Shown: one piece after another, positions 12,496-62,653 of the stretch
Position numbering within the stretch: the stretch's first letter is position 1
How the letters are laid out: the number at the start of each line of letters is the position of its first letter
DNA from: Candidatus Multivorans sp.
GTDB lineage: Bacteria; Acidobacteriota; Thermoanaerobaculia; Multivoradales; Multivoraceae
Assembly: GCA_965222875.1 (NCBI GenBank)
Contig: CBDCVC010000003.1
Location: forward strand, 706,567 to 770,566
DNA length: 64,000 bases
Direction of reading: 5' to 3'
Made by a program: the position numbers and the translations under genes
The notes under the pieces: generated by a model
What the model saw: the letters and a program-made list of their open reading frames with translations, nothing else
Databases searched by the model: none
Told to the model about the DNA's origin: nothing

Positions 12496-12499
12496 GTCG

Positions 12500-21455: not shown

Positions 21456-21967
21456 GCGTTCCGGTCGATGTGGGACGGCCCTTCCGAGGCCGGGTCTTCC
21501 GCTACGGCGACCACGTGAACACGGACGTCATCTTCCCCGGTCGCTACACGTACACGAAGAGCCGGCCGGAGGAGGTCGCGCCCCACGCCCTGGAGGACCT
21601 CGACCCGACGTTCGTTGAGCGCGTGGGCTCAGGCGACGTGATCGTCGCCGGCTGGAACTGGGGCTGCGGCTCGAGCCGCGAGCAGGCCGCGGTGTGCCTA
21701 CGCTACGCCGGTGTCGGCGCGGTGGCGCGCAGCTTTGGCCGCATCTTCTACCGCAATGCACTGAACAACGGTCTGCTCGCGATCGTCTGCCCGGAGGCGG
21801 TCGACTCGCTGGAGGAAGGTGCCGAAGTGGAGGTGGATCTTGAGGGGTCGATCATCCGCTGCGGCAGTTCCGGTTTCGGTTTCTCACCCTTCAGCCCGGC
21901 CGTCCGCTCGATGATCGCGGTCGGCGGCCTGATCGAGCAGACGAAACGGCGTCTGGCGGCGGGGTAG
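21452..21967 (+). CDS. Homoaconitase / 3-isopropylmalate dehydratase small subunit
   Basis: LeuD-like swivel domain ([14 protein letters not shown]...[14 protein letters not shown]). ATG 21452 overlaps the large-subunit stop. Confidence 0.85.
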
Positions 21968-21974
21968 CCGTACC

Positions 21975-51142: not shown

Positions 51143-51763
51143 GTGATTCCACTGGCGGCAGCGCTCGCGGCGCCGATCCTGGGCGCGGCGTTCTACGGAT
51201 TGCTGCATCACCGATCGGGGGCGACCCGGGTGGTGGACGGGCTGGTGTACCTGGCGGTACCCATCCTCGTGGCGGTGCAGGTGTTTCCGCATTCCTTGAA
51301 CACCGAGGACCTGTTGAGCTTGGTGGCGGTGGCTCTCGGCGCCGGCCTCTACTTCGTCCTCGAGCGGATGTCGAGGGTGCTTGCCGCGCAGGCGGACAAT
51401 CTCGCGATCCTGGTTGCTCTCTCGGGGCTGGTGTTACACGCGCTCCTGGAGGGTGCTGCGCTGGCGCCAGGTATGGATCAGTCAGACGCGTTCTTCGTCT
51501 TCGCCGTCGTGCTGCACCGGTTTCCGGTTGGCCTGGTGGTCTGGTGGTTGATCCGTCCGCGGCACGGGGGAGCGGCGGCTTTGGTAGGGGTCGGGGCGAT
51601 CGTTGCGGCGACCCTGACGGGTGCTGCCGGAGGGAGTCTGTTGGCGTCGCCCTCGAACGGCATGGGCCTGGACCTGTTCCAGGCGTTCGTGGCCGGTTCC
51701 CTGTTGCACGTCGTCTTCCACCAGGGCCGGAGTGATCACCGGCACGAGGACGGCGGTCCCTAA
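51143..51763 (+). CDS. Small polytopic membrane protein, possibly divergent ZIP-family metal transporter
   Basis: 6 hydrophobic helices. LHALLEGAALAPG and VLHRFPVGLVVW resemble ZIP motifs (HNFPEGLAV), and HVVFHQG is also ZIP-like. GTG start 51143 after the GhrB stop. Weak call. Confidence 0.4.
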   Translation: MIPLAAALAAPILGAAFYGLLHHRSGATRVVDGLVYLAVPILVAVQVFPHSLNTEDLLSLVAVALGAGLYFVLERMSRVLAAQADNLAILVALSGLVLHALLEGAALAPGMDQSDAFFVFAVVLHRFPVGLVVWWLIRPRHGGAAALVGVGAIVAATLTGAAGGSLLASPSNGMGLDLFQAFVAGSLLHVVFHQGRSDHRHEDGGP

Positions 51764-52470
51764 CTTCGGAACGAGCGGGCGACACGGAAGCCCGTGTCGT
51801 CGGCCGCGAAGTCGGTGGATTCGCGCTTCCGTAGGCCGCAGTGAAGTTCAGCAGCTTCAAGCCGGAAGGAACCGCCGCAGAGCGATCGGTGGCGTTCGTC
51901 GTCGTCCGGGTCGGAGGCGACCCATTCCCAGACACTGCCCAGCATGCCGTGGAGGCCGAAATCGTTTGCAGCCAGGTGCTCGGGCGGCTGGACAAGCCCG
52001 TCCGAGTTGCCGGCGTGCCAGCAACATCGGTCGATCGACTCCGGTGTGGTGTTCCAGGAGGGAACCTCGTTGGCCACGGAAGTGCCTCGGCAGGCATAGC
52101 GCCACTCGACTTCGGTCGGCAGCCGCATCGGTTTGCGGGAGACCTCTGCGTACCACCGGCAGTAGGCGTCGGCCTGCCGCCAGCTCACCCCGACGGCGAG
52201 GTCGCGGTCGCCCGCTGACAGCGGTGGCCGCTGGTAGTCCGGGTCGAAGGCCTCGAACTGTTCGTTCGTGACCGGCCACTTGCTGAGGTAGAAGGGCTCG
52301 ACCGGCGCCGGGCGCCCCTCGGTCTCGATCTCGCCACCCGGGATCAACCACAGGATGGTGCGCGGAACGTGGGCGTAGGAGCGGGGCAGCGGGCGGCGCT
52401 CGGTGCTGGCCACGGGGCTACCTGAGTCAGGACGGTCGGCCGAACACCTTGGGCGTCGGCATCCGGGCAC
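51760..52470 (-). CDS. Formylglycine-generating-enzyme (SUMF1/FGE-sulfatase domain) family protein
   Basis: YLSKWPVTNEQFEAF...VGVSWRQADAYCRWY...RLPTEVEWRYACRG...GNVWEW-like GSVWEWVAS...GGSF are FGE-domain hallmarks. N-terminus/start uncertain (overlaps the rSAM gene end by about 40 nt if 52470 is used). Confidence 0.75.
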   Translation of the reverse strand: MPGCRRPRCSADRPDSGSPVASTERRPLPRSYAHVPRTILWLIPGGEIETEGRPAPVEPFYLSKWPVTNEQFEAFDPDYQRPPLSAGDRDLAVGVSWRQADAYCRWYAEVSRKPMRLPTEVEWRYACRGTSVANEVPSWNTTPESIDRCCWHAGNSDGLVQPPEHLAANDFGLHGMLGSVWEWVASDPDDDERHRSLCGGSFRLEAAELHCGLRKRESTDFAADDTGFRVARSFRS

Positions 52471-53794
52471 GGATCGCGTCGAGTTCCTCGACGGTCACGG
52501 TCGAAATGCCGTTCTTGCGGCAGTGGGACTCCACCGAGCGGACGACCATGCCGCGGACAAAGGCCGGCACCCGCTTCATCCGCGCTTCCGCCTCGGGTTC
52601 CCAGGCGATGCTGGTCGAGGTGTCCTCGCCGTAGCGGGAAAGGGACGCGAGCCCGGTTCGGTCCCCGAGCGCCGCGAGTTGCTGCGGCGAGAAGGACCCG
52701 GGGTCGTGGGTGCACAGCGGATCTTCCGCCATGAGGTCGCCGGTCATGCCGTAGGCGCGGGCGCGGCAGCCGCCGCAGACCGACTGCAGCTCGCAGGAAC
52801 CGCACCGGCCGCCGAGGTCCTTGCGGCGCCGGATGTCCTGGAACAGCTCGGAGTCGTTCCAGACCGCGGACAGCGTCGAACGCTTCAGGTTGCCGCCGAA
52901 GACGGGCAGGTACGGGCAAGGGGTGACGTCGCCGTTCGGGCGGATCCCCATGTAGTGGGTGCCGGCCGGGCAGCCGCCGGCGCCGCCGTCGAAGGCCTTG
53001 AGGAAGGGCGAGTCGGGATCGCCGGACAGCAGTTGACGAACGTAGTGGGGCGCGCACTTCGCGTTGACCACCATGCGGCCGCGGTAGTCGCGCTGAATCT
53101 GTTCCAGGGAGGCGAGGACGTCGTCGTAGTCGGACGGCGAGAGGTCGGACACGAACTGGCCGCGGCCCGTGGGCACCAGGAAGTACAGGTTCCAGACCCG
53201 GGCCTGGAGCTCGGTATAGGCGAACGCGGCGATCTCCTCCAGTTCCCCGCGGTTGTGTGCCCCGGCGGTGGTCTGGATGATGAAGGGAAGGCTGGCTGCG
53301 GCCAGGTGTTTGGCGCCGTCGACCGTGTTCTGCCAGGCGCCGCGCACGCGGCGGAAACCGTCGTGGACCGACGGATCCAGCGCGTCCAGCGACAGGGCGA
53401 GACCGCGGACTCCTTCGCCGGCCAGGATGCGGGCCAGGTTCTCGGTGATCCGGACGCCGTTGCTGCCGACCACGACCCACAGCTCGCGCTCCGCGGCGTA
53501 GCGGACGATGTCGAGGATGTCGCGCCGCAGCAGCGGTTCGCCGCCGGTGAGGATGACCAGGGCCTCGGGCGCGAACTCGCAGATGTCGTCGATCACCTTC
53601 CGGCACTGGTCGGTGGAGAGTTCCGAGCGATCGGCGAAGTTGGCGGTCTCGACCAGGGGCTTGCCGCCGGCGTCGAGGTAGCAGTGTTCGCAGGCCAGGT
53701 TGCAGCGGTACGTCAGGTTCCAGGAGATGACGTAGGGGCGGGCGAACGCCGCCGGCACGGCGCTCGTCGGTCGCTCCAAGGGTGACAGGGTCAT
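52427..53794 (-). CDS. Radical SAM / SPASM-domain enzyme (anSME-like) fused to a C-terminal PCP_red (BchB C-terminal-like) domain
   Basis: CX3CX2C = CNLACEHC near the N-terminus. SPASM-type Cys clusters (CAPHYV, CPAG, CPYLP, CGSCELQSVCGGCRARA). C-terminal 55 aa IAWEPEAEARMKRVPAFVRGMVVRSVESHCRKNGISTVTVEELDAIRARM match the BchB C-terminal motif W.PEAE..L..IPFFVRGK.....E.FAR..G...I. Confidence 0.8.
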   Translation of the reverse strand: MTLSPLERPTSAVPAAFARPYVISWNLTYRCNLACEHCYLDAGGKPLVETANFADRSELSTDQCRKVIDDICEFAPEALVILTGGEPLLRRDILDIVRYAAERELWVVVGSNGVRITENLARILAGEGVRGLALSLDALDPSVHDGFRRVRGAWQNTVDGAKHLAAASLPFIIQTTAGAHNRGELEEIAAFAYTELQARVWNLYFLVPTGRGQFVSDLSPSDYDDVLASLEQIQRDYRGRMVVNAKCAPHYVRQLLSGDPDSPFLKAFDGGAGGCPAGTHYMGIRPNGDVTPCPYLPVFGGNLKRSTLSAVWNDSELFQDIRRRKDLGGRCGSCELQSVCGGCRARAYGMTGDLMAEDPLCTHDPGSFSPQQLAALGDRTGLASLSRYGEDTSTSIAWEPEAEARMKRVPAFVRGMVVRSVESHCRKNGISTVTVEELDAIRARMPTPKVFGRPS

Positions 53795-53818
53795 GGCGAG
53801 AGCCTCGTGCGCACTCGA

Positions 53819-54292
53819 TCAGGCAATGCCGAAGAAGGAGCGGGCCCGCTCCAGCACCGCCGCGTCGACCTCCTCGTAGCCATGGTCGAGAGCGAACTTC
53901 TCGATTCCGGCGACCGCCGAAGTGCGCACGATGTCCGGGATGTTCGCCAACCGCTCGCGGGCCTCGGCGGTCCAGGGGATGCCTCCTGATTCACCGTTGC
54001 CGGTAGCGCCGCCGCTGCCGGCCGAGTCGGTCCCGGTAGTCGGCATGCCCATCTCGGCCAGCATGCCCGTGAAGGGACACTTCGATGACGTGGCCCCGGC
54101 CTCGGTGCCGGTCTCGGGGCCGATCCGTACGCCGAGCGATCCGACCACCTGGGTCTCGTGGGGATTGGTCATCATGGCCATCTCGGCGGAGCAGGAAGGG
54201 CAGGCATAGACCAGAGCCACGGAACCGCCATCGGGGCCCAGGGCGTGCTTCAGCTTCATCTGTTCGTCGCAGGGTACGCAGAGGAACTTCAT
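53819..54292 (-). CDS. Zn-ribbon + PCP_red-domain small protein
   Basis: N-terminal CxxC...CxxC (FLCVPCDEQ...VYACPSCSAEM). C-terminal IPWTAEARERLANIPDIVRTSAVAGIEKFALDHGYEEVDAAVLERARSFF is a PCP_red-like motif. Confidence 0.6.
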   Translation of the reverse strand: MKFLCVPCDEQMKLKHALGPDGGSVALVYACPSCSAEMAMMTNPHETQVVGSLGVRIGPETGTEAGATSSKCPFTGMLAEMGMPTTGTDSAGSGGATGNGESGGIPWTAEARERLANIPDIVRTSAVAGIEKFALDHGYEEVDAAVLERARSFFGIA

Positions 54293-54372
54293 TCTTTGGT
54301 CTCTGTCGGTGGGAATTAGGTTGGCTTGGTGGGGATCAGGTTGGCCGATCAGAATCAGGTGCTTGGTCCGAT

Positions 54373-55245
54373 TCAGGTTGGCTTGGCGAGGCGGCTCAGG
54401 ATCGAAGCGGCTGCCTCCTCGATCGCGCGGATGACCGGTCCTGGGGCCAGGTCCGCTTCACCGGCATCGGAGGCCGCAGCCAGACGCGGGTCGAACGGTA
54501 CCTTAGCCAGGCAGGGGAGTCCAAGCTCGGGCGCTTCGCCGGCGGCGCCATCGAACAGCGGGCGGACCCCTTCGCACGTTCCGCAGTAGTAGCCGCTCAT
54601 GTTCTCGATGTACCCGAGCACCTCGTTCGGCGTCGTGCCGAGCGCCGCCGCCGAGCGCGCGACGACCCCGCGGGCCAGCGCGGCAGGAATCGTGACGAGC
54701 ACGAAGCGTGCGGTCGGCCCCAGGACCTCGGCGTACTGCAGGGTGCGCTCGGCGCCGGGCGGCAGGTCGACCAGCAGGAAGTCGAGACGACCCCAGTCCA
54801 CCAGGCCGAGCAACTGCTGGAACAGGTTGAACTCGCGGGTTGCGCGCCACACGTGGGAGTCGCCCTTCGCGACGCTCTCGAACTCGAGGTGCTCCGATGC
54901 GGGTACCATGGAGCCCACCGACAGGACGCCCAGACCGTCAGGCGTGCGCGGCAGGGCCATGCCCCGATCGCCAGGCAGCAGCGGAACCTGTTCCAGTCCG
55001 GCCAACCGGGCCTGGCAGGGACCGTTCAGGTCGGCGTCGAGGATCGCGCACCGGCAGCCGGCGCGCCCGAGCGCCAGGGCGAGCTGCATGGTCAGCGTGC
55101 TCTTGCCCACGCCTCCCTTGCCGGAACCGATCGCGACCACGTGATCGATGCCGGCCATGGCCTCGGCGATGCGCTCACGCTGCTGGAGAACCTGCCCGAG
55201 AACGTCGGAACCGCCGTCTCCGGCGACGTCGAAGTAGGTCTTCAT
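54373..55245 (-). CDS. Mrp/NBP35 (ApbC) family iron-sulfur cluster carrier ATPase
   Basis: VAIGSGKGGVGKST (deviant Walker A) and GYIENMSGYYCGTCEG (CxxC Fe-S bridging motif). ATG at 55245. Confidence 0.85.
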   Translation of the reverse strand: MKTYFDVAGDGGSDVLGQVLQQRERIAEAMAGIDHVVAIGSGKGGVGKSTLTMQLALALGRAGCRCAILDADLNGPCQARLAGLEQVPLLPGDRGMALPRTPDGLGVLSVGSMVPASEHLEFESVAKGDSHVWRATREFNLFQQLLGLVDWGRLDFLLVDLPPGAERTLQYAEVLGPTARFVLVTIPAALARGVVARSAAALGTTPNEVLGYIENMSGYYCGTCEGVRPLFDGAAGEAPELGLPCLAKVPFDPRLAAASDAGEADLAPGPVIRAIEEAAASILSRLAKPT

Positions 55246-56087
55246 GGCCCGCGGATGCATTCGAGAAGGCCGGTTCGTCCAGCCAGCGAGCGGGCCGCGG
55301 CGCGAAGCCGCCCGCGGCGGCCGAGTTCCGGATAGGCCGCGCGCTGAAAGATGAGCCCATCGTTCACGATCCAGGGGCGGCTGCGACCGAAGGCGTGACG
55401 ATGCCTCTTCATGTAGACGAGTTCGAAACCGTTCTTCGCCAGCAGGCCGATCAACTCCTGGGGACGGATTCCAAACTGCCAGTACCAATGGTTGTCCCGC
55501 TCCAGCCGTCCGTCTTCGTCACGTTGGTGATGCTTGTCAAACCACGCCTCCAGCCGGGCGCGCGTGTTCCAATCGTCTTCCCAAACGTAGACATTCCTGT
55601 AGTACCAGTCGAGGCCGCGATCGACGAACCGTATGGTTCGTGCAGTCTTCAACCAGTTCTGATTGAAGACAATCAGAACGTTCGTGTGCGGCAGCCAGTT
55701 CAGCAGGAACCTGTCCCAGTCCGGCTTGACCTGGTGCAGCAGGATGTCGTACATGATGAGGGCATCGACCTCGCCGACCGCGTCGAGCGCCTGCTGCGAT
55801 CCGAGGAGGGCCTCGACGAGTTCCACTCTTGGATGTTCCTTCGCGCGCTCCCGGGTCAGAGGAGTCAGGTTGCCGTCGACGATCACCGCTCTCTCCAGCT
55901 CGTTTCCGCAGAGTTCGGCGGCGTGGAACGTGTAGGCGCCATCGACGCCCCAGCAGGCGCCAAGGTCGGCGAAAGACCGGAAGTCGGCGAGCTCGAAGGC
56001 CGTCTCGAGCAGTTCGAGTTTCTCCGGTTTGGGCTGAACCTCGGACTGCGCTCCGATTGGCGTTTCTTCGGCGGAATGAGCGGACAT
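55242..56087 (-). CDS. Hypothetical protein (possible class I methyltransferase-like fold)
   Basis: 281 aa from MSAHSAEETPIGAQ. FADLGACWGVDGAYTF is weakly reminiscent of SAM-MTase motif I. No firm family assignment. Confidence 0.4.
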   Translation of the reverse strand: MSAHSAEETPIGAQSEVQPKPEKLELLETAFELADFRSFADLGACWGVDGAYTFHAAELCGNELERAVIVDGNLTPLTRERAKEHPRVELVEALLGSQQALDAVGEVDALIMYDILLHQVKPDWDRFLLNWLPHTNVLIVFNQNWLKTARTIRFVDRGLDWYYRNVYVWEDDWNTRARLEAWFDKHHQRDEDGRLERDNHWYWQFGIRPQELIGLLAKNGFELVYMKRHRHAFGRSRPWIVNDGLIFQRAAYPELGRRGRLRAAARSLAGRTGLLECIRGP

Positions 56088-56104
56088 GATGGGCAGCGTA
56101 ACAG

Positions 56105-57097
56105 TCACGACCGGGCCGCGTCGCTTTCGTATCGGAGGGTCTTCCGCGTCGCCTGGAAGCCGCAGTCTTCGAGCCGATCCGCCAATGGTTCGGCGGGGTG
56201 CACCCGCGGCAGGTAGAGCGGTCGTTTGGAATCGTTGGCGGCGAAGGCGAGGAGGGGTCCAAGAAGCGCGGGCACCGGCCGCTTGCCGCCGATCGCGAGG
56301 ATCTCGCAGGCTGTGGAGTCGGCAGGCAGGGCGCCGGCCGACGTGGGAGGCAGCGGGCGGGCGATGAACGGCAGGGGGTCGTCGGCGTTCCGGACGCCCC
56401 GGTAGAGAAGATAGGCCTCGAAGCCGCGGTCGGTGGCGATGCCGACGCCCAGTGCTCGCTCCCGCAGGTTGCGGATCGTCTGAGCGGAGCGCTGCCAGCA
56501 ACGGTTCCGCTCCGAGACATCGGCGAACTCGGCGCCGGCGGTGATCTCCGTCGGTGCAACAGTCCCGACCAGGGCGAGGAAGGGGCTGGCGGCAGGGCTT
56601 TCGCCTGTGTGGAGGTAGTCGATCAGGGTTTGCCGTTCAGCGAAACCGCAGGCGTTGAGGAAACGGTGGGCGGCGACGGCTTCCGCCGGAACTTCGACGA
56701 GCATGCGGGTCGGCTCGAGGATCGCCATCTTCTGGCTGAGCGAGGTCATCATGTGGCGGGCATGGCCCTGCCGGCGGTGTTCGGGGTGGACCGCGATGTG
56801 GAGCACGAGGTTGGCCGTGGGCGCCCTCTTCGCTGCGATCAGGACGCCGATCGGGTCGGATCCTGCGAACGCGACCATGCAACTGCTGGTCCAGAGGTTG
56901 ATCTCCCTGGCGAGCCGCTTCATGTGGTCGACTGTGAGCCGCCACGGGACGGCGCCGGGTCCCACGTTGCAGCGGTGGAAGGCCTCGACGATCAGGGGAA
57001 CGTCGTCGGAGCGGCAGAAGCGGTACGCGGACACCGGCCTACTCGGACTGCGGACCGGCAGGCGCCCCGAGCGCGGCCGCCGTGGGGGTCGCGCCAT
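56105..57097 (-). CDS. GNAT acetyltransferase-domain protein with C-terminal extension
   Basis: LVLHIAVHPEHRRQGHARHMM is the GNAT motif A. N-terminal start uncertain (Met at 57097 chosen to avoid overlap with the upstream gene). Confidence 0.5.
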   Translation of the reverse strand: MARPPRRPRSGRLPVRSPSRPVSAYRFCRSDDVPLIVEAFHRCNVGPGAVPWRLTVDHMKRLAREINLWTSSCMVAFAGSDPIGVLIAAKRAPTANLVLHIAVHPEHRRQGHARHMMTSLSQKMAILEPTRMLVEVPAEAVAAHRFLNACGFAERQTLIDYLHTGESPAASPFLALVGTVAPTEITAGAEFADVSERNRCWQRSAQTIRNLRERALGVGIATDRGFEAYLLYRGVRNADDPLPFIARPLPPTSAGALPADSTACEILAIGGKRPVPALLGPLLAFAANDSKRPLYLPRVHPAEPLADRLEDCGFQATRKTLRYESDAARS

Positions 57098-57182
57098 CCG
57101 GGTTCGTTGCGTTCTGCGGTGCAGCCTCCTGGCCGAGCAGATCGTCCAGCTTGAACACGGCGGCCGGCGGAGAAAGCGGAAC

Positions 57183-59339
57183 TCAGGCTTCCGGTTCGCC
57201 GGCCTTGCGCTTCTCGTCAAGTGCCGACATCAGGCCGACCTCGTTCAGGTAAGCGCCGGCCTTCGCGTCCTTCGCCGCCTCGACCTGTGCCTCGCTCGCG
57301 CCGGCTTCGGCGAGAGCGGAGAAGGGACACCGGCCGGCGGCCGTCGCGGCCTTCGTCTCGGCCTCCGCGACCTCGGTCGCCTGGGTTCCTTCGCCCTTGC
57401 CGATCTCGTAGGCGGCGATCATCTGCTCCATCAGCTCGCGGCCGAGCTCGATGCCCTCTTCGACCGTCTTGATCCCGATCCGCGAGATGTGCTTCTCACG
57501 GGCCACCAACTCGACACGCTCCTGGGTCCGGTCCCGCATGAAGCCGGCGGGAACCCGGAGGATGCGGGAGGTCGCTTCGGCCGTCCACTCGTAGCTCGAG
57601 AGCATCGGCACCCGGTCGGCGTCGCGGGCGATGAGCTTCCGCTCGTCGGCCGCCTCGGACGCGCCGTTGCCGGCCGTCTCGGCCGCCTGCTCACGGGCCT
57701 CGATCGTCACCGGCTCACCGGTCTCGTCCTCGATCAGCGCGCGGGCGAACTCGAAGGTGACGGTCGGCAGCTTGCTCATCCGCGCCTTCTTCTCGATCCG
57801 GGCCTTGGCGCGGCGGCGCCGGTAGGCGTCCTCGATCGTCTTGAGGGCCAGACGGGCGTCCGCGGTCCACTTCAGCTTGCGGCCGTCGTAGGTCGTCTCG
57901 ACCTCGAAACCGCCCTCCATCTCGGCGATCCGGTCCAGCATCTCCTCCGTGATCTGCTCGAACGATTCGCTGCCGCAGACGCCGCAGCGGACCGGATCCG
58001 GCTCGGCCGAGGTCACGCCGCACTTGCGGCAGATGAAGGTGGGCCGGCTGCGCGCGAGCTCCAGGGCGACCTGCTCGGCCAGCGCCTCCGTCTCGCGTGC
58101 CGTGTACTTCGGCATGTAGCGGTCCATCGCCTCGTCCAGCACGTCGCTCGAGATCACGCTGTGTCCCTGCTCGACTGCCAGCCGGTAGAGCGCGGTGCGG
58201 GCGATCCCGCGGACCTGCTCGGGGACGCGCTCGAAGCGCTCCTCGGCCTCGGGCGTCCAGCGGATGCTCTCCTCGGCCTTGACGTCGAGTTCGGGGTACT
58301 CGAGACGGGTGGTCAGCAGGAGGTCGCAGGGGCAGGAACGGAGCAGGTTCTCGGCGTTGCTGCCGAGGCCGGTCTCGCTCTCGTCGCTATGCACGCCGAC
58401 GCGGCCGATCACGAGCATCCAGGGATCGATCTTCCGGGCGTGGTCGAGGACCTTCTGGAACGCCTTGCCGTCGAGCAGGCTCTTCGTCAGCTCGACGCCG
58501 ACCCCGGTTGCCATCGTCTCGGCGACGTCCAGGTGCGACTGGTAGATCTGCGCCAAGCCGGTGTCGATGATCTCCTCGTGGAGCTGGTTCTGCTCCTCGA
58601 AGCGGAAGATCTTCGCGGCGCGCTCCGTCAGCACGTTGACCACGCCCTTGAACACGGAGTAATGGAGGTACGGATCGTAGACCGAGATCGCCTCGACCTT
58701 CTTGCCGAAGCGCTTCGCCAGGTCGATGGCGGTCATCAGGGCGCCGAAGGACTGGGGCGAACCGTCGACTCCGACCAGGATCGTGTCGCGGCCGTCGGCC
58801 TTGTCGTGGTGGCCGTTGCCGTTGGTCGCCGTGCCGTTGCTCTTCGAAGGCAGGCGCTTGATCACCAGCACGTCCTTGTCGGCGGTGCGGGCGACCCGCT
58901 CGCAGACCGAGCCGATCTGCGTGTCGCGGACGCGGCCGATGCCCATCACGCCGAGCACGGTCAGGTCGTAACCGGACTCGCGGATGTCGCGCACGATCTC
59001 GACGTGGTGCTTGCCGTCCATCATCTTCGGCTCGAACTCGAGGTCGGCTTCGTCGCAGACCGCCTTCATCGGCTCGAGGTAGCTCTCCGAGATGAGCTCC
59101 AGCCCCATCGTGATCAGGGAGTCGTGGATCTTCCGCTGGCGGTCGAGTTCCGTCTCCTCGAGGTACTCGTCCGGCAGCGTGTACTCCATCTGCTTGAAGC
59201 GGTAGTCGTGCATGCTGGCCGCGTAGACGTGGCAGCCGACCATCCTGGAGTCGAACTTCCGGCCCAGTTCGACCGCGGAGGCGATCGCCTGGTTGGAGTA
59301 GTCCGAGTTGTCGAGCGGGACGTAGATCGTCTTGTACAT
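57183..59339 (-). CDS. Multidomain protein: two universal-stress-protein (UspA) domains + Zn ribbon + three PCP_red-like repeats
   Basis: USP 1 (YKTIYVPLDNSDYS...VLGVMGIG...VCERVARTADKDVLVI) and USP 2 (ILVGVDGSPQS...WMLVIGRVG...LLRSCPCDLLL). PCP_red-like segments IRWTPEAEERFERVPEQVRGIARTALYRLAVEQGHSVISSDVLDEA, LKWTADARLALKTIEDAYRRRRAKARIEKKAR and YEWTAEATSRILRVPAGFMRDRTQERVELVAREKHISRIGIKTVEEG. Zn ribbon CRKCGV...CGVCG. Confidence 0.7.
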   Translation of the reverse strand: MYKTIYVPLDNSDYSNQAIASAVELGRKFDSRMVGCHVYAASMHDYRFKQMEYTLPDEYLEETELDRQRKIHDSLITMGLELISESYLEPMKAVCDEADLEFEPKMMDGKHHVEIVRDIRESGYDLTVLGVMGIGRVRDTQIGSVCERVARTADKDVLVIKRLPSKSNGTATNGNGHHDKADGRDTILVGVDGSPQSFGALMTAIDLAKRFGKKVEAISVYDPYLHYSVFKGVVNVLTERAAKIFRFEEQNQLHEEIIDTGLAQIYQSHLDVAETMATGVGVELTKSLLDGKAFQKVLDHARKIDPWMLVIGRVGVHSDESETGLGSNAENLLRSCPCDLLLTTRLEYPELDVKAEESIRWTPEAEERFERVPEQVRGIARTALYRLAVEQGHSVISSDVLDEAMDRYMPKYTARETEALAEQVALELARSRPTFICRKCGVTSAEPDPVRCGVCGSESFEQITEEMLDRIAEMEGGFEVETTYDGRKLKWTADARLALKTIEDAYRRRRAKARIEKKARMSKLPTVTFEFARALIEDETGEPVTIEAREQAAETAGNGASEAADERKLIARDADRVPMLSSYEWTAEATSRILRVPAGFMRDRTQERVELVAREKHISRIGIKTVEEGIELGRELMEQMIAAYEIGKGEGTQATEVAEAETKAATAAGRCPFSALAEAGASEAQVEAAKDAKAGAYLNEVGLMSALDEKRKAGEPEA

Positions 59340-59450: not shown

Positions 59451-61184
59451 TCAGACGGCGGTGGCCTCGGTACCCGCGAGGGCGGTCTCGTCGCCGGCCG
59501 ATGCCTGGTTCGCGCGTCGGCGGACCAGGAACACGACGAGCAATTCGATCACAAGCACGATGAAGGCGGCGCGCAGCACCGGGATCGTCGCTGCCTGCCT
59601 CACGCTGGGTTCGGTGTAGACGTAGAACCAGGACGACAGGGCGCGCTTGTTGCCGCGTTCCCGGTTGAAGCCGTCCCAGACGCTGAAGGCGATCGGGGTG
59701 TACTGCTGCTCGGCGAAGCTGACGCCGGCGCGCGACGCGCGCCGGCGCTTGGTTGTCACCGTCCACTCGCCCTGGTCGTAGGAGGTCACGGCCTCGACGA
59801 TGTCGGCCTCGGTCGGCTCGATCGCGTCGCTGCCGCGACCGCGGAAGGTGTCCGCGACGCCATAGGTCAGGTTGACGAACCAGAGGTCGACGGGGTTCGA
59901 GCTGTCGCCGAACAGGAAGTACGGTTTGAGCTGGGGGGTGTCCTCGGGCGCGAGCGAGGCCGGGAACTGGAGCGCCACCGCATCCGAGAACTCGGCGCCG
60001 TCGCTGCCGGCGTCGTCGCCGCCGCCAAAGAAGTCGTCGTCCGTGCCGAAGAAGTCGTCGGCGCTGTCGTCCTCGGGCTCCTCCTCGACGCCGAAGAAGC
60101 CGCCGTCCCCTCCGTCACTGTCTCCCGAGTCGATGTCGTTGTCCTCGTCCCACATCGGTACTTCGAGGGCCGGACTGTTCCGGCCGGTGTTGTCGGCGCG
60201 CAGGTCGTTCCAACGCACACGGAAGGCGATCTCGCCGCGGTTGTAGACGGCCTGAGCCTCGATCGAGGTCACGGACGGATAGAAGTTGCGACCCGGTTCG
60301 GTGATCTGCCCGACCAGGGGGAAGCGGGTCATCGGCGCGGTCTCGAACAGGGCGTCGAGCGCTTCCGCGTCCTGCAGGTCGATCGCCTCCTCGGTCCAGG
60401 CAGCGGTGATCAGGGTGCCGTAGCCGGAGTCGTCTCCGTCGCCCAGGAAGTACACGTAGTTCACCAGGTGCTGGCGGTCCTCCACTTCCAGCGAGTCGGC
60501 GTACGACGGCATCGGGGTGCCGTTCAGCCCGGTGGAGAAGGTGCGGTAGATGTCCTCCTTGGTCGGACCGCCGCGGAACGTCCAGCGTTGGGTCAGGTCG
60601 GCGATCTTGATGGGATCGCCCTTGTCGTTGACCAGGGTCGGTGCCGAAGAGCCGTCGCCGCGACCGACGTCGCCGTGGCATGCGCCGCAAGCCTGCTCCT
60701 CGTACAACTGCCGGCCACGGGCGATCGACTCCTCGGTCGACTCGAGCGGCCGGGGAATGTCGATGGGCTCACCGTAGCGGTCCGGGTTCTCGAAGTCGGG
60801 CGAGAAGGACTTGATGTAGTAGATGACGTTGTCGATTTCGGTGCTCGTCAGGTTGGGCCAGCCCGGCATCGACGTGTAGGGGAGGCCGATTTCGATCGCG
60901 CGGCGCAGGTCGTCGTCCGTGGGAAGCATCCCGTTCGGCGTGGTGCGGAACTTGTACTTGCCGGACGTGAAGTCGCGCGGCTTCGGCTTGACCCGTAGTG
61001 TGGCGTGGCCGTTGCCGTCGCCGGTGTCACCGTGGCACTGGCCGCAGTACTTGTCGTAGACCACCTTGCCGGCCGCTCGCTGTTCCTCGGTGCCGAGGTC
61101 GACCTGGGCGGCCAGGGGCGCGGCCAGCAGGGCGGCGCCCACGGCTACGGACGGTACGGCCGCGAGAATGTGACGCACGGACAT
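59451..61184 (-). CDS. Periplasmic di-heme c-type cytochrome (large, Asp/Gly-rich linker)
   Basis: Signal peptide. Two CxxCH (CGQCHGDTGDGNG and CGACHGDVGRGDG). Acidic linker (EDNDIDSGDSDGGDGGFFGVEEEPEDDSADDFFGTDDDFFGGGDD). Confidence 0.7.
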   Translation of the reverse strand: MSVRHILAAVPSVAVGAALLAAPLAAQVDLGTEEQRAAGKVVYDKYCGQCHGDTGDGNGHATLRVKPKPRDFTSGKYKFRTTPNGMLPTDDDLRRAIEIGLPYTSMPGWPNLTSTEIDNVIYYIKSFSPDFENPDRYGEPIDIPRPLESTEESIARGRQLYEEQACGACHGDVGRGDGSSAPTLVNDKGDPIKIADLTQRWTFRGGPTKEDIYRTFSTGLNGTPMPSYADSLEVEDRQHLVNYVYFLGDGDDSGYGTLITAAWTEEAIDLQDAEALDALFETAPMTRFPLVGQITEPGRNFYPSVTSIEAQAVYNRGEIAFRVRWNDLRADNTGRNSPALEVPMWDEDNDIDSGDSDGGDGGFFGVEEEPEDDSADDFFGTDDDFFGGGDDAGSDGAEFSDAVALQFPASLAPEDTPQLKPYFLFGDSSNPVDLWFVNLTYGVADTFRGRGSDAIEPTEADIVEAVTSYDQGEWTVTTKRRRASRAGVSFAEQQYTPIAFSVWDGFNRERGNKRALSSWFYVYTEPSVRQAATIPVLRAAFIVLVIELLVVFLVRRRANQASAGDETALAGTEATAV

Positions 61185-61242: not shown

Positions 61243-62121
61243 TCAGTGCTGCCCCAGCGCGCGCGGCTCGTAGCCGTTGAAGTCGTAGAGGAACAGGTTG
61301 ACGTCCCACATCTCCTCGGTGGTCAGGAACAGCTCCCACGCGGGCATGGCGCTGTCCCAGGGAGTGCCTCCCGCGGGAAGACCGGGTCCCCCCTTGGCGA
61401 TCCGCCAGTGAACAAAGGAGGACTGCAGGATCGGCAAGGTGCCGACGTCGTTGAAGTTGCTGGGCACCGGGTTCAGGCCGTGGGCGAACATGCCGTCGCC
61501 GCCCATGCCGTCGCCGTGGCACCAGAAGCAGTTCTCGTAGTAGACGCGGCGGCCGTTCTCCAGGTGCTCCTCGTACGCTTCCGGGTCGTCCTCGTGAAGA
61601 TCGGTGTACGGGTTGTCGGCGGTCGCCATGTCGATCGTCTCGTCGTGGACGGTGATCTCCGCGGGCGGAGGCGGATGAACCTCGCGCCCGAAACCGGGCG
61701 CCTCGAGCGGAACATTCATGTCCGCGTAGACGTTGTAGGCGGCCAGGGCCGGCAGCGCCACGAGTACCGCGGCCAGAAGCGGCCGGCGCCGCGGTTCAAG
61801 GATGAGCCGCACGATCGGCCCGACGGTCTCGGACAGGCGCTCGCGGCTCGACGAGGCGTAGCAGACCAGAGCGAGCGTAGCGATCCCGAGGTAGATCGTC
61901 GCCACCGACTGCGGGATCGGTACGGCGAAGCCGAACTTGAAGAAGGCCCACAGCGCGATCCAACTGAAGAGCAGCCAGGTGAGTGTGTTCGCCCGGCGCC
62001 AGATCAGCACGCCGGCGACCGCGGCCAGGCCAAGAAGAACCGGTAGGTTGAGTCCCCACATGATCGAGTCAGTTCCGTGAAGGTTCGGGGGCCGGGTGGC
62101 TGCCCACCAGGGAGCAGTCAC
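61243..62121 (-). CDS. Membrane-anchored mono-heme c-type cytochrome (3 N-terminal TM helices + cytochrome c domain)
   Basis: TM helices in residues 20-110. CFWCHGDGMGGDG heme-binding motif. Confidence 0.65.
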   Translation of the reverse strand: MTAPWWAATRPPNLHGTDSIMWGLNLPVLLGLAAVAGVLIWRRANTLTWLLFSWIALWAFFKFGFAVPIPQSVATIYLGIATLALVCYASSSRERLSETVGPIVRLILEPRRRPLLAAVLVALPALAAYNVYADMNVPLEAPGFGREVHPPPPAEITVHDETIDMATADNPYTDLHEDDPEAYEEHLENGRRVYYENCFWCHGDGMGGDGMFAHGLNPVPSNFNDVGTLPILQSSFVHWRIAKGGPGLPAGGTPWDSAMPAWELFLTTEEMWDVNLFLYDFNGYEPRALGQH

Positions 62122-62185: not shown

Positions 62186-62653
62186 TCAATAGCCCAGATC
62201 CGTATCCAGGGTGACGGTCGGGGCGCCGCCCTGGCTTTGCAGCCAAGCGATGACGGCCTTCATTTCATCGTCGCTGAAACTGATTGGAGGTTCGTTCATC
62301 TTCTGCATTCCCTGGGCGAAGCCGGGAACGAGGAACGCGTCGGGATCGTACAGCGATTGCGCCAGGTACTCGATGTCGGAATACCCTTCGATGCGGCTGC
62401 CGGCCCGCGAGCCGACGCCGTCGAGTGCCGGAGCGCGGACCTCGTTGTGACAGTCCATGCATATGCCCTTGCCGTTGACCAGCTCGCGGCCGACCTCAAT
62501 CAGGTCTTCGGTCGTCATCTCCGCGCTGATCAGCACCGGCGGCGGGGGATGCACCTCCTTCTGGGGCACGATCTGGCCCAGGTACATGTAGAAGGCCGTG
62601 GTGCCCAACACCAGGAGGACCATCTTGAGCGGCATCGGGACGTTCAGCTTCAT
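62186..62653 (-). CDS. Small membrane-anchored c-type cytochrome
   Basis: N-terminal TM anchor. CMDCH heme-binding site. Overlaps the upstream gene stop by 4 nt. Confidence 0.7.
   Translation of the reverse strand: MKLNVPMPLKMVLLVLGTTAFYMYLGQIVPQKEVHPPPPVLISAEMTTEDLIEVGRELVNGKGICMDCHNEVRAPALDGVGSRAGSRIEGYSDIEYLAQSLYDPDAFLVPGFAQGMQKMNEPPISFSDDEMKAVIAWLQSQGGAPTVTLDTDLGY

What the first reader, a model, noticed from the sequence alone, without database searches (positions are those of the whole stretch)
51760..59339. Seven-gene co-directional cluster built around three different PCP_red (BchB C-terminal-like) domain fusions, a radical-SAM/SPASM enzyme, an Mrp/NBP35 Fe-S carrier and an FGE-like gene
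Three consecutive or near-consecutive genes on the minus strand each carry a domain with the motif W[TE]xEAxxRxxx[IV]PxFVRxxxxxxxExxAxxxGxxxVTxE. In BchB/ChlB this motif is the C-terminal substrate-capping PCP_red domain.

(a) An anSME-like radical SAM/SPASM protein (52427..53794; CX3CX2C plus SPASM cysteines) has one copy at its C-terminus.
(b) A 157-aa Zn-ribbon protein (53819..54292) has one copy.
(c) A 718-aa protein (57183..59339) has two UspA domains, a Zn ribbon and three copies.

Between them lie an Mrp/NBP35 Fe-S-cluster-carrier ATPase, a methyltransferase-like ORF and a GNAT protein. The cluster ends with an FGE/SUMF1-like gene, and intergenic gaps are 0-80 nt, consistent with one operon. 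The window contains no sulfatase, so the FGE + anSME-like combination is not a conventional sulfatase-maturation pair. A SPASM rSAM fused to a tetrapyrrole-binding-type cap domain, with a Zn-ribbon-PCP_red module occurring twice, suggests an uncharacterised Fe-S/radical enzyme system. The substrate could be a tetrapyrrole or a peptide. The location next to c-type cytochrome / bd-like oxidase genes hints at a redox or haem-related role. I do not recognise this combination as a described pathway.
Basis: partly seen in the sequence, partly recalled or inferred. Interest (0 to 1): 0.8.

Follow-up and report, generated by a model that had tools for sequence, protein, structure and literature searches.

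The report
Haem-tailoring helper genes beside bd-like oxidase
Next to an unusual respiratory oxidase, this acidobacterium carries an undescribed helper gene set built around a radical-SAM enzyme related to the last enzyme of haem synthesis; the same set sits beside the same oxidase in several bacterial phyla, so it probably prepares or delivers that oxidase's haem.

Summary
Pfam finds PCP_red above threshold in all three proteins, and the radical-SAM/SPASM, Mrp/NBP35, GNAT, Usp and FGE-like assignments are confirmed. Three details are wrong:
- The radical-SAM enzyme is AhbD/NirJ2-like (haem b synthase clade, 288 bits against a cutoff of 500), not anSME-like.
- The 'methyltransferase-like' ORF matches no family.
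- FGE and that ORF occur only in the window's own clade (Ca. Multivorans, Acidobacteriota).

The conserved core differs from the seven genes proposed. Mrp, a small Zn-ribbon/Cys-Pro/PCP_red protein and the rSAM-PCP_red enzyme form a triad in 77 of 79 acidobacterial loci. A Usp-PCP_red protein is the enzyme's immediate neighbour in 61 of 81 distant metagenome loci.

In Acidobacteriota, Nitrospirota, Gamma- and Betaproteobacteria the Usp/rSAM pair lies beside the same cluster: a CydA-like 'bd-like' oxidase with c-type cytochromes and a cytochrome c/EB_dh protein. Outside Acidobacteriota a HemY-type porphyrinogen oxidase gene often follows directly.

Best reading (about 0.5): a dedicated haem (tetrapyrrole) maturation or hand-off module for this oxidase. 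I found no description of it. I rate it a new variant of a known enzyme kind, with interest of about 0.7.

The parts
62650..64000 (-). CydA-like 'bd-like' oxidase subunit, cut by the window end
   Evidence: The ORF has no upstream stop before the window end. It is 74% identical to the 617-aa L002 protein that carries PF01654 Cyt_bd_oxida_I. The fragment itself has no Pfam hit.
62186..62653 (-). Small monohaem cytochrome c (155 aa)
   Evidence: A CMDCH motif is read directly from the translation. The L002 orthologue carries PF00034. Its start overlaps the stop of the oxidase gene by 4 nt.
61243..62121 (-). Cytochrome c (292 aa)
   Evidence: Pfam Cytochrome_CBB3 and Cytochrom_C.
59451..61184 (-). 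Dihaem cytochrome c fused to an EB_dh (haem b, DMSO-reductase type II gamma-like) domain, 577 aa
   Evidence: Pfam Cytochrom_C x2 and EB_dh at 52.6 bits. NCBIfam TIGR03477-like, below its cutoff.
57183..59339 (-). Usp-Usp-PCP_red-Zn ribbon-PCP_red-PCP_red protein (718 aa). PCP_red copies lie at about 58128-58259, 57735-57869 and 57450-57587. A C-terminal RCPF motif is present.
   Evidence: Pfam Usp x2 (128 bits), PCP_red x3 (74.9 bits) and a weak HypA-like ribbon. The RCPF motif occurs only in the Thermoanaerobaculia clade.
56105..57000 (-). GNAT acetyltransferase. The start is uncertain; orthologues are 285-289 aa.
   Evidence: Pfam Acetyltransf_7/_1. It follows Usp-PCP_red in L001-L003 and is detected upstream in 30 of 32 close and 23 of 36 distant acidobacterial loci. 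It is absent from the other phyla.
55242..56087 (-). Orphan ORF5 (281 aa), a lineage-specific insertion
   Evidence: No Pfam, NCBIfam or PDB match. Codon-position GC supports coding from aa 139 of the listed ORF. It is present in 16 of 33 close loci and 0 of 40 distant loci.
54373..55245 (-). Mrp/NBP35-type Fe-S cluster carrier ATPase (about 290 aa)
   Evidence: Pfam ParA/NUBPL at 168.8 bits. The best NCBIfam match is MrpORP at 166 bits, below its cutoff of 450. A deviant Walker A (GKGGVGKS) and a CGTC motif are read from the sequence.
53819..54292 (-). Small partner protein 'sPCP' (157 aa): Zn-ribbon, a disordered linker with an invariant Cys72-Pro73(-Phe) at 54071-54079, and PCP_red at 53840-53974
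   Evidence: Pfam. Alignments A2 and A7 show C72 and P73 invariant in 19 and 95 sequences. The motif is present in nearly all loci. The AlphaFold model is confident for the ribbon and PCP_red and low for the linker. Foldseek matches 2KRU with TM 0.80.
52427..53794 (-). AhbD/NirJ2-like radical-SAM/SPASM enzyme with a C-terminal PCP_red domain (455 aa). The CX3CX2C motif lies at 53681-53704 and PCP_red at 52472-52603.
   Evidence: Pfam Radical_SAM, SPASM and PCP_red. NCBIfam AhbD 288 bits and NirJ2 277 bits. It is 65-73% identical across acidobacterial classes.
51760..52470 (-). FGE-sulfatase-domain protein (236 aa), a clade-specific addition
   Evidence: Pfam FGE-sulfatase at 101.6 bits. NCBIfam gives only weak partial matches (GldK, PvdO, EgtB). 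It is present in 35 of 35 close loci and 0 of 44 distant loci.

Best explanation
The window holds the acidobacterial version of a widespread, undescribed accessory module of a cytochrome-c-linked 'bd-like' (CydA-family) terminal oxidase.

**Shown**
- The catalytic part is a radical-SAM/SPASM enzyme of the AhbD/NirJ clade with a C-terminal PCP_red domain.
- Its general partner is an ATP-binding-type tandem Usp protein with several PCP_red domains.
- In three lineages a dedicated Mrp-type Fe-S carrier is also present, paired with a small Zn-ribbon/Cys-Pro/PCP_red protein.
- The module recurs beside the same oxidase cluster in four phyla or classes.

**Inferred**
- The enzyme performs AhbD/NirJ-type side-chain chemistry on an iron tetrapyrrole. 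SAM is cleaved at the CX3CX2C cluster, a hydrogen atom is abstracted from a propionate, and electrons leave through the two SPASM clusters.
- Mrp loads its three [4Fe-4S] clusters.
- The PCP_red domains, spread over the enzyme, the Usp protein and the small protein, dock the partners into one complex.
- The Cys-Pro motif in the small protein's disordered linker ligates haem iron transiently during hand-off.
- The product is haem b made locally, or a modified haem, and it goes to the co-encoded oxidase and its cytochrome c/EB_dh partner.

FGE, ORF5 and GNAT are lineage-specific additions.
For: 1. **Enzyme class.** The best models are AhbD (288 bits), NirJ2 (277 bits) and TIGR04053 (263 bits). 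The CX3CX2C motif and a full set of SPASM cysteines are present. Distant family members give the same ranking at 278-329 bits.
2. **Triad.** Mrp, sPCP and the rSAM enzyme occur in order in 34 of 34 close and 43 of 45 distant acidobacterial loci. The same set plus Usp-PCP_red occurs in a lineage whose rSAM is only 37% identical (L085, L088).
3. **Usp partner.** Usp-PCP_red is the gene immediately upstream of the rSAM in 61 of 81 metagenome loci.
4. **Trading of copies.** PCP_red copy numbers trade between the two proteins: Usp x3 with rSAM x1 in Acidobacteriota and lineage E, and Usp x1 with rSAM x3 in lineages B and C.
5. **Oxidase linkage.**
   - Acidobacteriota: bd-like, three cytochrome c genes and cytochrome c/EB_dh lie directly upstream in the window and L002. 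Among distant loci the bd-like gene is found in 12 of 33 and the cytochrome c/EB_dh gene in 17 of 33.
   - Nitrospirota-type (L168): bd-like, cytochrome c, cytochrome c/EB_dh, Usp-PCP_red, rSAM-PCP_red and a HemY-like gene, all on one strand.
   - Ca. Sedimenticola (L169) and Gallionella (L170) have equivalent clusters.
   - L163, L089 and L090 also carry bd-like or cytochrome c/EB_dh genes.
6. **Tetrapyrrole link.** A HemY-family protoporphyrinogen/coproporphyrinogen oxidase follows the rSAM directly in L106-L109 and L163. Two of these were scored against TIGR00562, giving 249 and 285 bits against a cutoff of 98. An Amino_oxidase-family homologue, not scored against TIGR00562, follows in L168-L170. 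HmuY-like haem-binding proteins flank the pair in L089 and L090.
7. **Oxidase-assembly neighbours.**
   - A DUF420/CtaM-like gene in lineage C.
   - A CopD-like gene in 46 loci. CtaM and CopD serve copper supply to haem-copper oxidases (PMC13344008, PMC4958251).
   - An aa3-type COX operon convergent downstream in 34 of 52 acidobacterial loci.
8. **Cys-Pro motif.** It is invariant in sPCP and lies in a low-confidence linker. CP[FV] motifs number 41 in 150 PCP_red proteins against 2.9 expected. They resemble haem regulatory motifs of the HO-2 and Irr type (own knowledge; the topic is covered in PMC10377097).
9. **Not a housekeeping role.** The family occurs in Gamma- and Betaproteobacteria. [quoted passage not shown] This argues for a dedicated role.
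Against: - No activity was tested here, and every AhbD/NirJ model score is far below its equivalog cutoff.
- AhbD homologues with extra domains can act on lipids (Gms; PMC11214058), so similarity alone does not fix the substrate.
- In 57 Nitrospirota-type loci (lineage E) and in the low-GC lineage H, no oxidase gene lies within 10 kb.
- In about half of the distant acidobacterial loci the triad is not next to Usp-PCP_red or the oxidase.
- The window itself has no HemY-like gene or any other haem-biosynthesis gene.
- Haem binding by PCP_red or by the Cys-Pro motif is unproven. The role of PCP_red in DPOR is itself unclear.
- The AlphaFold model of the enzyme is too weak to show domain docking (pLDDT 67; SPASM region below 50).
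Confidence: 0.5

Rival explanations
1. The enzyme is a housekeeping O2-independent coproheme decarboxylase (a true AhbD) that completes the coproporphyrin-dependent pathway. It merely lies within respiratory gene islands, and the PCP_red partners only tune or protect it.
For: - AhbD is the top NCBIfam model, and JGI annotates several members as AdoMet-dependent haem synthase.
- Acidobacteria are reported to use the coproporphyrin pathway, and AhbD occurs in some such organisms without other Ahb genes (PMC10991733, PMC13564367).
- A HemY-family gene lies directly downstream in several lineages.
- Conservation is very high, 65-73% identity across acidobacterial classes.
Against: - The score of 288 bits is well below the cutoff of 500.
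- Canonical AhbD needs no Usp, PCP_red or Mrp partners.
- The family is common in Gamma- and Betaproteobacteria, where HemQ/AhbD are largely absent and not needed (PMC5095920).
- It is linked repeatedly to one particular oxidase cluster rather than to hemE, hemH or other pathway genes.
Confidence: 0.2
2. The enzyme is a protein- or peptide-modifying SPASM maturase. It modifies the invariant Cys-Pro site of the small PCP_red protein, the Usp-PCP_red protein or an oxidase subunit, for example by a thioether or other cross-link. PCP_red would act as the recognition domain.
For: - Most SPASM enzymes act on peptides together with a small partner protein. The nearest solved structures are PqqE, SkfB, SuiB and anSME.
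- The small partner carries an invariant Cys in a flexible linker and is always encoded next to the enzyme in Acidobacteriota.
Against: - Sequence similarity is clearly highest to the tetrapyrrole-acting AhbD/NirJ2/NirJ/AhbC group: 141-288 bits, against 141 bits for MftC and 116 bits for PqqE.
- sPCP is absent from the loci of most other lineages, while the enzyme keeps its PCP_red domain.
- The HemY-like and HmuY-like neighbours point to tetrapyrroles.
Confidence: 0.12
3. This is a quinone-biosynthesis enzyme. The AhbD-like oxidative decarboxylase would supply the missing decarboxylation or C1 step of methyl-plastoquinone or related quinone pathways.
For: - In 24-36 Nitrospirota-type loci the order is MpqE (400.6 bits against a cutoff of 335), a B12 radical-SAM gene, Usp-PCP_red, rSAM-PCP_red and a CopD-like gene.
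- Elling et al. report that mpqD/X decarboxylases are absent from Nitrospira and Leptospirillum, and that the C1 hydroxylase is unresolved (10.1101/2024.07.27.605408).
Against: - The linkage is seen in one narrow lineage, where housekeeping genes (UvrA, LolA, FtsK) are equally syntenic.
- Methyl-plastoquinone is confined to Nitrospirota according to that paper, whereas the module occurs in Acidobacteriota and Proteobacteria.
Confidence: 0.04
4. One reading: an unconventional FGE + anSME-like pair that makes formylglycine or a related residue on a non-sulfatase target.
For: - An FGE-sulfatase-domain gene follows the rSAM gene in all 35 close relatives.
- Another FGE-domain gene lies 7 kb from the module in Gallionella.
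Against: - The enzyme is not anSME-like.
- FGE is absent from 44 of 44 more distant acidobacterial loci, and no FGE-domain gene was called next to the module in the loci of other phyla.
- The Cys-Pro site lacks the C-x-P-x-R spacing that FGE and anSME recognise (own knowledge of the motif, read).
Confidence: 0.02
5. ATP-driven electron delivery. The Mrp-type ATPase, a relative of NifH and BchL, would carry a bridging [4Fe-4S] cluster and dock on PCP_red domains, as BchL might on BchB. It would then inject low-potential electrons into the radical-SAM enzyme rather than only loading its clusters.
For: - Mrp and sPCP are always adjacent in three lineages.
- PCP_red is otherwise known from the BchB subunit of an enzyme driven by a NifH-like ATPase.
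- The only DPOR chain that Foldseek returned for the PCP_red model is 2YNM_D, from the ChlL-bound complex.
Against: - Most lineages have no Mrp gene next to the module.
- Contact between PCP_red and ChlL could not be examined with these tools.
- Mrp/NBP35 proteins are established cluster carriers, not reductases (own knowledge).
Confidence: 0.07

Closest known systems
AhbD (haem b synthase) / NirJ2, TIGR04545 / TIGR04055
   Same: - It is a radical-SAM enzyme with a CX3CX2C motif and a full SPASM domain.
- These are the highest-scoring curated models, aligned end to end over the 339-position profile.
- HemY-type genes are adjacent in other lineages, as expected for a coproporphyrin-type route.
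   Different: - It scores 288 and 277 bits against cutoffs of 500.
- It carries one to four C-terminal PCP_red domains.
- It has obligate-looking partners (Usp-PCP_red, and Mrp with sPCP).
- It is tied to a bd-like oxidase cluster.
- It occurs in proteobacteria that should not need a coproheme decarboxylase.
C-terminal PCP_red domain of DPOR subunit BchB/ChlB (PF08369; 2KRU, 2L09, 2YNM chain D)
   Same: It has the same three-helix domain by profile (46-75 bits) and by fold (TM 0.80, rmsd 0.8 A to 2KRU).
   Different: - Here it is fused to radical-SAM, Usp and Zn-ribbon modules, often in arrays of up to six copies.
- No nitrogenase-like catalytic domains are present.
- Its role in DPOR is itself undefined. 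The Pchlide-contacting helix is a different segment (PMC12022308).
HemW (radical-SAM-family haem chaperone for respiratory enzymes)
   Same: The concept is shared: a radical-SAM-fold Fe-S protein that handles haem for insertion into a respiratory complex (own knowledge; related review PMC10114771).
   Different: - HemW belongs to the HemN-like class, not the SPASM/AhbD clade.
- It has no PCP_red, Usp or Mrp partners.
anSME + FGE (sulfatase maturation)
   Same: It shares the SPASM architecture, and an FGE-domain gene lies downstream in this clade.
   Different: - anSME is only a distant structural neighbour (rank 17, 14% identity).
- No sulfatase gene was found among the window proteins scanned.
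- FGE is not conserved with the module.
Gms (GMGT synthase, an AhbD homologue with an extra domain)
   Same: It is a precedent for an AhbD-like core being retargeted by an added domain (PMC11214058).
   Different: - Gms carries an N-terminal COG4001 lipid-binding domain and clusters with tes/mss lipid genes.
- The protein here has a C-terminal PCP_red domain, with oxidase and haem-related neighbours.
Cytochrome bd-family OR-C / OR-N 'bd-like' oxidases (Murali, Gennis & Hemp)
   Same: The neighbouring CydA-like gene with c-type cytochromes fits the quinol-site-lacking, cytochrome-c-linked members described there (10.1101/2021.01.16.426971).
   Different: That work does not mention radical-SAM or universal stress protein accessory genes; both terms have zero occurrences in the text and supplements. 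The subfamily of the window's oxidase was not determined here.

Membership tests
AhbD haem b synthase (TIGR04545) | Radical-SAM CX3CX2C cluster motif | tested here: met
   C31-x3-C35-x2-C38 is invariant in alignment A1. Pfam Radical_SAM scores 78 bits.
AhbD haem b synthase (TIGR04545) | SPASM domain with cysteines for two auxiliary [4Fe-4S] clusters | tested here: met
   Pfam SPASM scores 40.9 bits. C275, C293, C331, C334, C340, C343 and C361 are invariant.
AhbD haem b synthase (TIGR04545) | Score at or above the curated equivalog cutoff (500 bits) | tested here: not met
   It scores 288.2 bits. Distant members score 278-317 bits.
AhbD haem b synthase (TIGR04545) | Conversion of coproheme to haem b | not testable with these tools
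   This needs an enzyme assay or genetic complementation.
AhbD haem b synthase (TIGR04545) | Genomic context with other terminal haem-pathway genes | tested here: inconclusive
   The window has none. A HemY-family gene lies directly downstream in L106-L109, L163 and L168-L170.
anSME (anaerobic sulfatase-maturing enzyme) | Best match to anSME models and a sulfatase substrate gene nearby | tested here: not met
   No anSME model is among the 25 best listed. No sulfatase was found among the window proteins scanned.
PCP_red domain (PF08369) | Score above the Pfam gathering threshold (32.5 bits) | tested here: met
   The three proteins score 49.2, 46.2 and 74.9 bits.
PCP_red domain (PF08369) | Three-helix fold of 2KRU and 2L09 | tested here: met
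   The sPCP model covers residues 105-155 with pLDDT 86-89. Foldseek gives TM 0.80 and rmsd 0.8 A to 2KRU.
Mrp/NBP35/ApbC Fe-S carrier | NUBPL P-loop domain, deviant Walker A and a C-terminal CxxC motif | tested here: met
   PF10609 scores 168.8 bits. GKGGVGKS and CGTC are read from the sequence. It is below the equivalog cutoffs of MrpORP (166 against 450) and ApbC (100 against 348).
Universal stress protein, ATP-binding type | Usp domain with a G-x2-G-x9-G-[ST] motif | tested here: met
   PF00582 is found twice, 128 bits in total. GVMGIGRVRDTQIGS is read from the translation. The PDB match to the MJ0577 ATP-binding domain is weak (E 5.7e-05).
Formylglycine-generating enzyme | FGE-sulfatase domain | tested here: met
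   PF03781 scores 101.6 bits.
Formylglycine-generating enzyme | Catalytic cysteine pair and a CxPxR substrate | tested here: inconclusive
   Only one Cys (the HCGL motif) is visible where I recall the C-x4-C pair of human FGE; this rests on memory and was not aligned. No CxPxR-bearing sulfatase was found in the window.
Haem regulatory (Cys-Pro) motif | A Cys-Pro dipeptide followed by a hydrophobic residue, in a flexible region | tested here: met
   K-C72-P73-F74 is invariant or nearly so. The surrounding linker has pLDDT below 55.
Haem regulatory (Cys-Pro) motif | Haem binding through the cysteine thiolate | not testable with these tools
   This needs spectroscopy of wild-type and C72A protein.
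Cytochrome bd superfamily, cytochrome-c-linked bd-like oxidase | CydA-like subunit (PF01654) encoded with c-type cytochromes | tested here: inconclusive
   The window fragment has no Pfam hit. Its 74%-identical orthologue in L002 carries PF01654. The subfamily (OR-C or OR-N) and the haem ligands were not examined.

The most novel reading that the evidence does not exclude
The module is a self-contained tetrapyrrole branch attached to the oxidase operon: a HemY-like oxidase, an AhbD/NirJ-like radical-SAM enzyme and a PCP_red/Cys-Pro relay. It would make a non-standard haem that serves as the active-site cofactor of the cytochrome-c-linked bd-like oxidases. The haem could be a partly decarboxylated or otherwise side-chain-modified coproheme derivative, analogous in role to haem d or d1. 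The PCP_red arrays would then be a new kind of haem-carrier scaffold.
Probability: 0.2. Interest if true: 0.85.

Novelty: new variant of a known kind. Interest (0 to 1): 0.7.

Why it matters
- **Oxidase cofactors.** The bd-like oxidases of Nitrospirota, Acidobacteriota and many sulfur- and iron-oxidising proteobacteria are abundant in the environment but biochemically uncharacterised. Their haem cofactors are inferred only from sequence.
- **A testable handle.** A conserved helper set with an AhbD/NirJ-type enzyme and, in many lineages, its own HemY-type oxidase gives a concrete way to find out which haem these oxidases use and how it is made and delivered.
- **Role of PCP_red.** The module gives the first functional context for PCP_red outside chlorophyll synthesis. 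There are 1,819 representative clusters, mostly Usp fusions.
- **A new motif.** It also points to a recurrent Cys-Pro motif that may mark a bacterial family of transient haem binders.
- **Annotation.** These proteins are currently annotated as 'radical SAM protein', 'AdoMet-dependent heme synthase' or even 'MftC'. At least the MftC name conflicts with the family's best model matches (AhbD/NirJ2).

Tried and rejected
- **Literature searches.** Searches for PCP_red, PF08369, 'PCP reductase family', and bd-like combined with radical SAM, Usp or HemY found nothing relevant. The one hit (P. stutzeri RB-TnSeq) concerns ordinary nir genes.
- **Papers not held.** The DPOR structure papers that might define the role of PCP_red are not in the library.
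- **Enzyme model.** AlphaFold of the enzyme on a shallow 20-sequence alignment gave pLDDT 67 with the SPASM region disordered. I did not use it to judge how PCP_red docks. Its fold search only returned generic SPASM and viperin-type radical-SAM structures.
- **Failed look-ups.** Exact-sequence look-ups of two window cytochromes, meant to extend past the window end, found no record.
- **No context.** Look-ups of P0290 and P0241 gave contigs too short to show context.
- **Low-GC lineage H.** Its neighbours are unrelated housekeeping genes (Tdh, CorA, LpxB, PrfA) and say nothing about function.
- **CopD-like protein.** I considered that the 169-aa CopD-like protein might be a HemJ-type porphyrinogen oxidase, but only a weak CopD match was found.
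- **UspPCP tail motif.** I considered the C-terminal RCPF motif of Usp-PCP_red as a general feature, but it is confined to the Thermoanaerobaculia clade.
- **ORF5.** The methyltransferase idea is rejected.
- **Rest of the window.** It was scanned for haem genes and none were found.

Full report
**1. What is in the window**

The region is high in GC (about 68%). Codon-position GC was used to separate real genes from shadow ORFs. On the minus strand, from 64000 down to 51760, lie eleven co-directional genes:
- a CydA-like 'bd-like' oxidase gene that runs off the window end;
- three cytochrome c genes, the last fused to an EB_dh haem b domain;
- a 718-aa Usp-Usp-PCP_red-Zn ribbon-PCP_red-PCP_red protein;
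- a GNAT;
- an orphan 281-aa ORF;
- an Mrp/NBP35-type ATPase;
- a 157-aa Zn-ribbon/PCP_red protein ('sPCP');
- a 455-aa radical-SAM/SPASM/PCP_red enzyme;
- an FGE-domain protein.

Gaps range from overlaps to 111 nt. The simple scan finds no terminator-like site between the genes. The rest of the window is housekeeping: a TonB-type outer membrane protein, a MoxR/Bat operon, a homocitrate-synthase/aconitase/IPMDH cluster, SHMT, MetG and an ABC transporter. It contains no haem-biosynthesis gene. The nearest genomes are Candidatus Multivorans and other Thermoanaerobaculia (Acidobacteriota), at 87-98% identity for the enzyme.

**2. Checking the observation**

All five copies of the repeated motif are PCP_red above Pfam's threshold. 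They align to the last 50-70 residues of BchB/ChlB and to the stand-alone domains 2L09 and 2KRU.

Three points are wrong:
- The enzyme is not anSME-like. The best curated models are AhbD haem b synthase (288 bits), NirJ2 (277 bits) and TIGR04053 (263 bits). All are below their cutoffs, and the peptide maturases score far lower.
- The 'methyltransferase-like' ORF has no detectable relatives in Pfam, NCBIfam or the PDB.
- PCP_red is probably not the Pchlide 'cap'. Recent DPOR structures place the in-trans substrate contact on BchB helix 398-420 (PMC12022308), whereas PCP_red aligns to residues about 468-521.

**3. What is conserved within Acidobacteriota**

The fused enzyme is very widespread and strongly conserved: hundreds of 90%-identity clusters at 65-73% identity. 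A pattern scan found it in 398 GTDB species representatives. I mapped the window proteins onto 84 loci by tblastn.

| Feature | Close loci (≥85% id) | Distant loci (<85% id) |
|---|---|---|
| Mrp-sPCP-enzyme triad | 34 of 34 | 43 of 45 |
| Usp-PCP_red | 30 of 32 | 19 of 36 |
| GNAT | 30 of 32 | 23 of 36 |
| bd-like oxidase gene | 5 of 32 (flank-limited) | 12 of 33 |
| FGE | 35 of 35 | 0 of 44 |
| ORF5 | 16 of 33 | 0 of 40 |

Downstream of the enzyme, on the opposite strand, 34 of the 52 loci clustered (mainly the distant ones) carry an aa3-type COX operon followed by alternative complex III genes. The triad is the local core, Usp-PCP_red with GNAT is a frequent second block, and the whole lies in a respiratory gene island.

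**4. The small protein**

Alignments of 19 and 95 homologues show three parts:
- a conserved N-terminal four-cysteine ribbon;
- two variable linkers flanking an invariant Cys-Pro, mostly K/R/G-C-P-F-x-x-M;
- the PCP_red domain.

The motif is present in nearly every locus. In the AlphaFold model the ribbon and PCP_red are confident, and the linker that carries the motif is not.

The same kind of motif (CPF, or CPV often followed by His) recurs in other PCP_red proteins. There are 41 occurrences in 34 of 150 representatives, against 2.9 expected and a maximum of 9 in 200 shuffles. They usually lie in inter-domain linkers or C-terminal tails. By form and setting these resemble haem regulatory motifs. 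That is a resemblance only, not a test.

**5. The domain family at large**

A profile of the five window copies finds 1,819 representative clusters at 50% identity. The best-scoring proteins carry up to six copies. Of 79 long ones, 45 have Usp domains, 23 have a rubredoxin-like ribbon, and three or four are radical-SAM/SPASM fusions. PCP_red is therefore mostly a repeated module of Usp proteins, not a chlorophyll-specific element.

**6. Distant lineages**

Radical-SAM/PCP_red fusions that are only 37-45% identical to the window enzyme still rank NirJ2 and AhbD first, at 278-329 bits. One such lineage has Crp, Mrp, sPCP, Usp-PCP_red and the enzyme in a row.

A metagenome scan returned 80 more loci. 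Usp-PCP_red is the gene immediately upstream of the enzyme in 61 of 81 loci. PCP_red copy numbers trade between the two proteins: three on Usp and one on the enzyme in Acidobacteriota and lineage E, and one and three in lineages B and C. This is what one expects of two parts of a single complex.

Neighbours in these lineages are:
- a HemY-family porphyrinogen oxidase directly downstream (249 and 285 bits for the two scored, against a cutoff of 98);
- HmuY-like haem-binding proteins and a DUF420/CtaM-like membrane protein;
- a CopD-like membrane protein in 46 loci.

CtaM and CopD domains are implicated in copper supply to haem-copper oxidases (PMC13344008, PMC4958251).

A large lineage, assigned to Nitrospirota by an MpqE match above cutoff, has MpqE, a B12 radical-SAM gene, Usp-PCP_red, the enzyme and the CopD-like gene in that order. 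This raises a quinone-pathway rival (10.1101/2024.07.27.605408). However, housekeeping genes are equally syntenic in that narrow lineage.

**7. The decisive contexts**

A final homologue search showed that the fusion is also common in Nitrospirota MAGs and in many Gamma- and Betaproteobacteria: Sedimenticola, Thiodiazotropha, Thiolapillus, Thiothrix, Gallionella, Nitrosomonadales and Sulfuricellaceae. Three long contigs were read with precomputed Pfam labels:
- **Nitrospirota-type contig (L168).** Cyt_bd_oxida_I, cytochrome c, cytochrome c/EB_dh, Usp-PCP_red, the enzyme and a HemY-like gene lie on one strand.
- **Ca. Sedimenticola (L169).** The oxidase, cytochrome c and cytochrome c/EB_dh genes lie divergently from a HEAT-repeat gene, a CarboxypepD_reg-like gene, Usp-PCP_red, the enzyme and a HemY-like gene.
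- **Gallionella (L170).** The oxidase, two cytochrome c genes and cytochrome c/EB_dh are followed by Usp-PCP_red, the enzyme, a HemY-like gene and another cytochrome c.

Loci L163, L089 and L090 show the same linkage. The window's arrangement therefore recurs in four phyla or classes. The study that defined the bd-like families does not mention these accessory genes.

**8. Interpretation**

*Shown:* the architecture, the partner set, and the recurrent linkage to one oxidase cluster and to HemY-type genes.

*Inferred:*
- The enzyme does AhbD/NirJ-type chemistry on an iron tetrapyrrole.
- Mrp loads its clusters.
- The PCP_red domains hold the partners together.
- The Cys-Pro linker handles haem.
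- The product goes to the neighbouring oxidase.

A purely housekeeping AhbD role is less likely, because proteobacteria that use the protoporphyrin pathway largely lack and do not need such an enzyme (PMC5095920). It remains a serious rival for Acidobacteriota, which are reported to use the coproporphyrin pathway (PMC10991733). A protein-modifying role cannot be excluded. AhbD homologues with added domains have been shown to act on lipids (PMC11214058), so the substrate must be tested directly.

**9. Verdict**

- The finding is real and conserved, and I found no description of it.
- It is best filed as a new variant of a known enzyme kind (an AhbD/NirJ-like radical-SAM enzyme) with a new domain and partner network and a new biological attachment.
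- It fails the curated membership cutoffs for AhbD and NirJ2, so it should not be named haem b synthase.
- Interest is about 0.7. It offers a direct experimental route to the cofactor chemistry of the environmentally abundant bd-like oxidases.

Noticed in passing
window 674-797 (-): A SAM riboswitch (RF00162, 73.3 bits against a gathering score of 44.4) lies directly upstream of a Cys/Met-metabolism PLP enzyme gene at 2-676 (-), which is cut by the window start.
   Followed up: no
window 6041-14350 (+): A MoxR AAA ATPase, DUF58/VWA, VWA, TPR and BatD gene string (a Bat/aerotolerance-type operon) follows a His-phosphatase gene.
   Followed up: no
window 18844-23042 (+): Homocitrate-synthase-like (HMGL + HCS_D2), aconitase-family and isocitrate/isopropylmalate dehydrogenase genes lie in a row. 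This suggests an alpha-aminoadipate-type lysine or leucine-like chain-elongation cluster.
   Followed up: no
L110-L167, e.g. L145:6313-13129: In a Nitrospirota-type lineage the Usp-PCP_red/rSAM-PCP_red pair is preceded by the methyl-plastoquinone methyltransferase MpqE and a B12-binding radical-SAM gene (slr0320-like, 445 bits against a cutoff of 775). It is followed by a CopD-like membrane protein. The published pathway lacks a decarboxylase and a C1 hydroxylase in Nitrospira.
   Followed up: partly
150 PCP_red representatives (alignment A4); window 54071-54079 and 57252-57263: Cys-Pro-Phe/Val motifs (KCPFA, GCPVH and similar) are strongly enriched in the linkers and tails of PCP_red repeat proteins: 41 observed against 2.9 expected. 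Many are followed by His, as in the Irr haem regulatory motif (own knowledge).
   Followed up: partly
L001-L084 (e.g. L002:15719-16441), L163:7195-7938, L169:6628-7371: A CarboxypepD_reg-like periplasmic protein recurs in two settings. It sits next to COX1 in 27 of 49 distant acidobacterial loci, and directly upstream of Usp-PCP_red in Sedimenticola-type loci. Its C-x2-H-x2-M motif (KCDVHPWM) looks copper-binding.
   Followed up: no
PDB 2YNM chain D against other DPOR entries: Among the top 50 Foldseek hits for the sPCP model, the only DPOR chain was 2YNM_D, from the ChlL-bound complex. Sequence searches had matched several BchB/ChlB entries. The domain may be ordered only when the NifH-like partner is bound.
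   Followed up: no
L005, L009, L011, L013 and others (close relatives): In several Ca. Multivorans genomes the distance between the Usp-PCP_red and GNAT hits is 2-4 kb larger than in the window. In L009 the FGE gene is displaced by about 4 kb. This suggests insertions inside the cluster.
   Followed up: no
L170:19304-20047 (-): In Gallionella an FGE-sulfatase-domain protein sits next to a cytochrome b gene, 7 kb from the module. This echoes the FGE gene at the end of the window cluster.
   Followed up: no
window 55242-56087 (-): ORF5 is a 281-aa protein with good coding statistics but no detectable family. It is inserted between GNAT and Mrp only in the closest relatives.
   Followed up: partly
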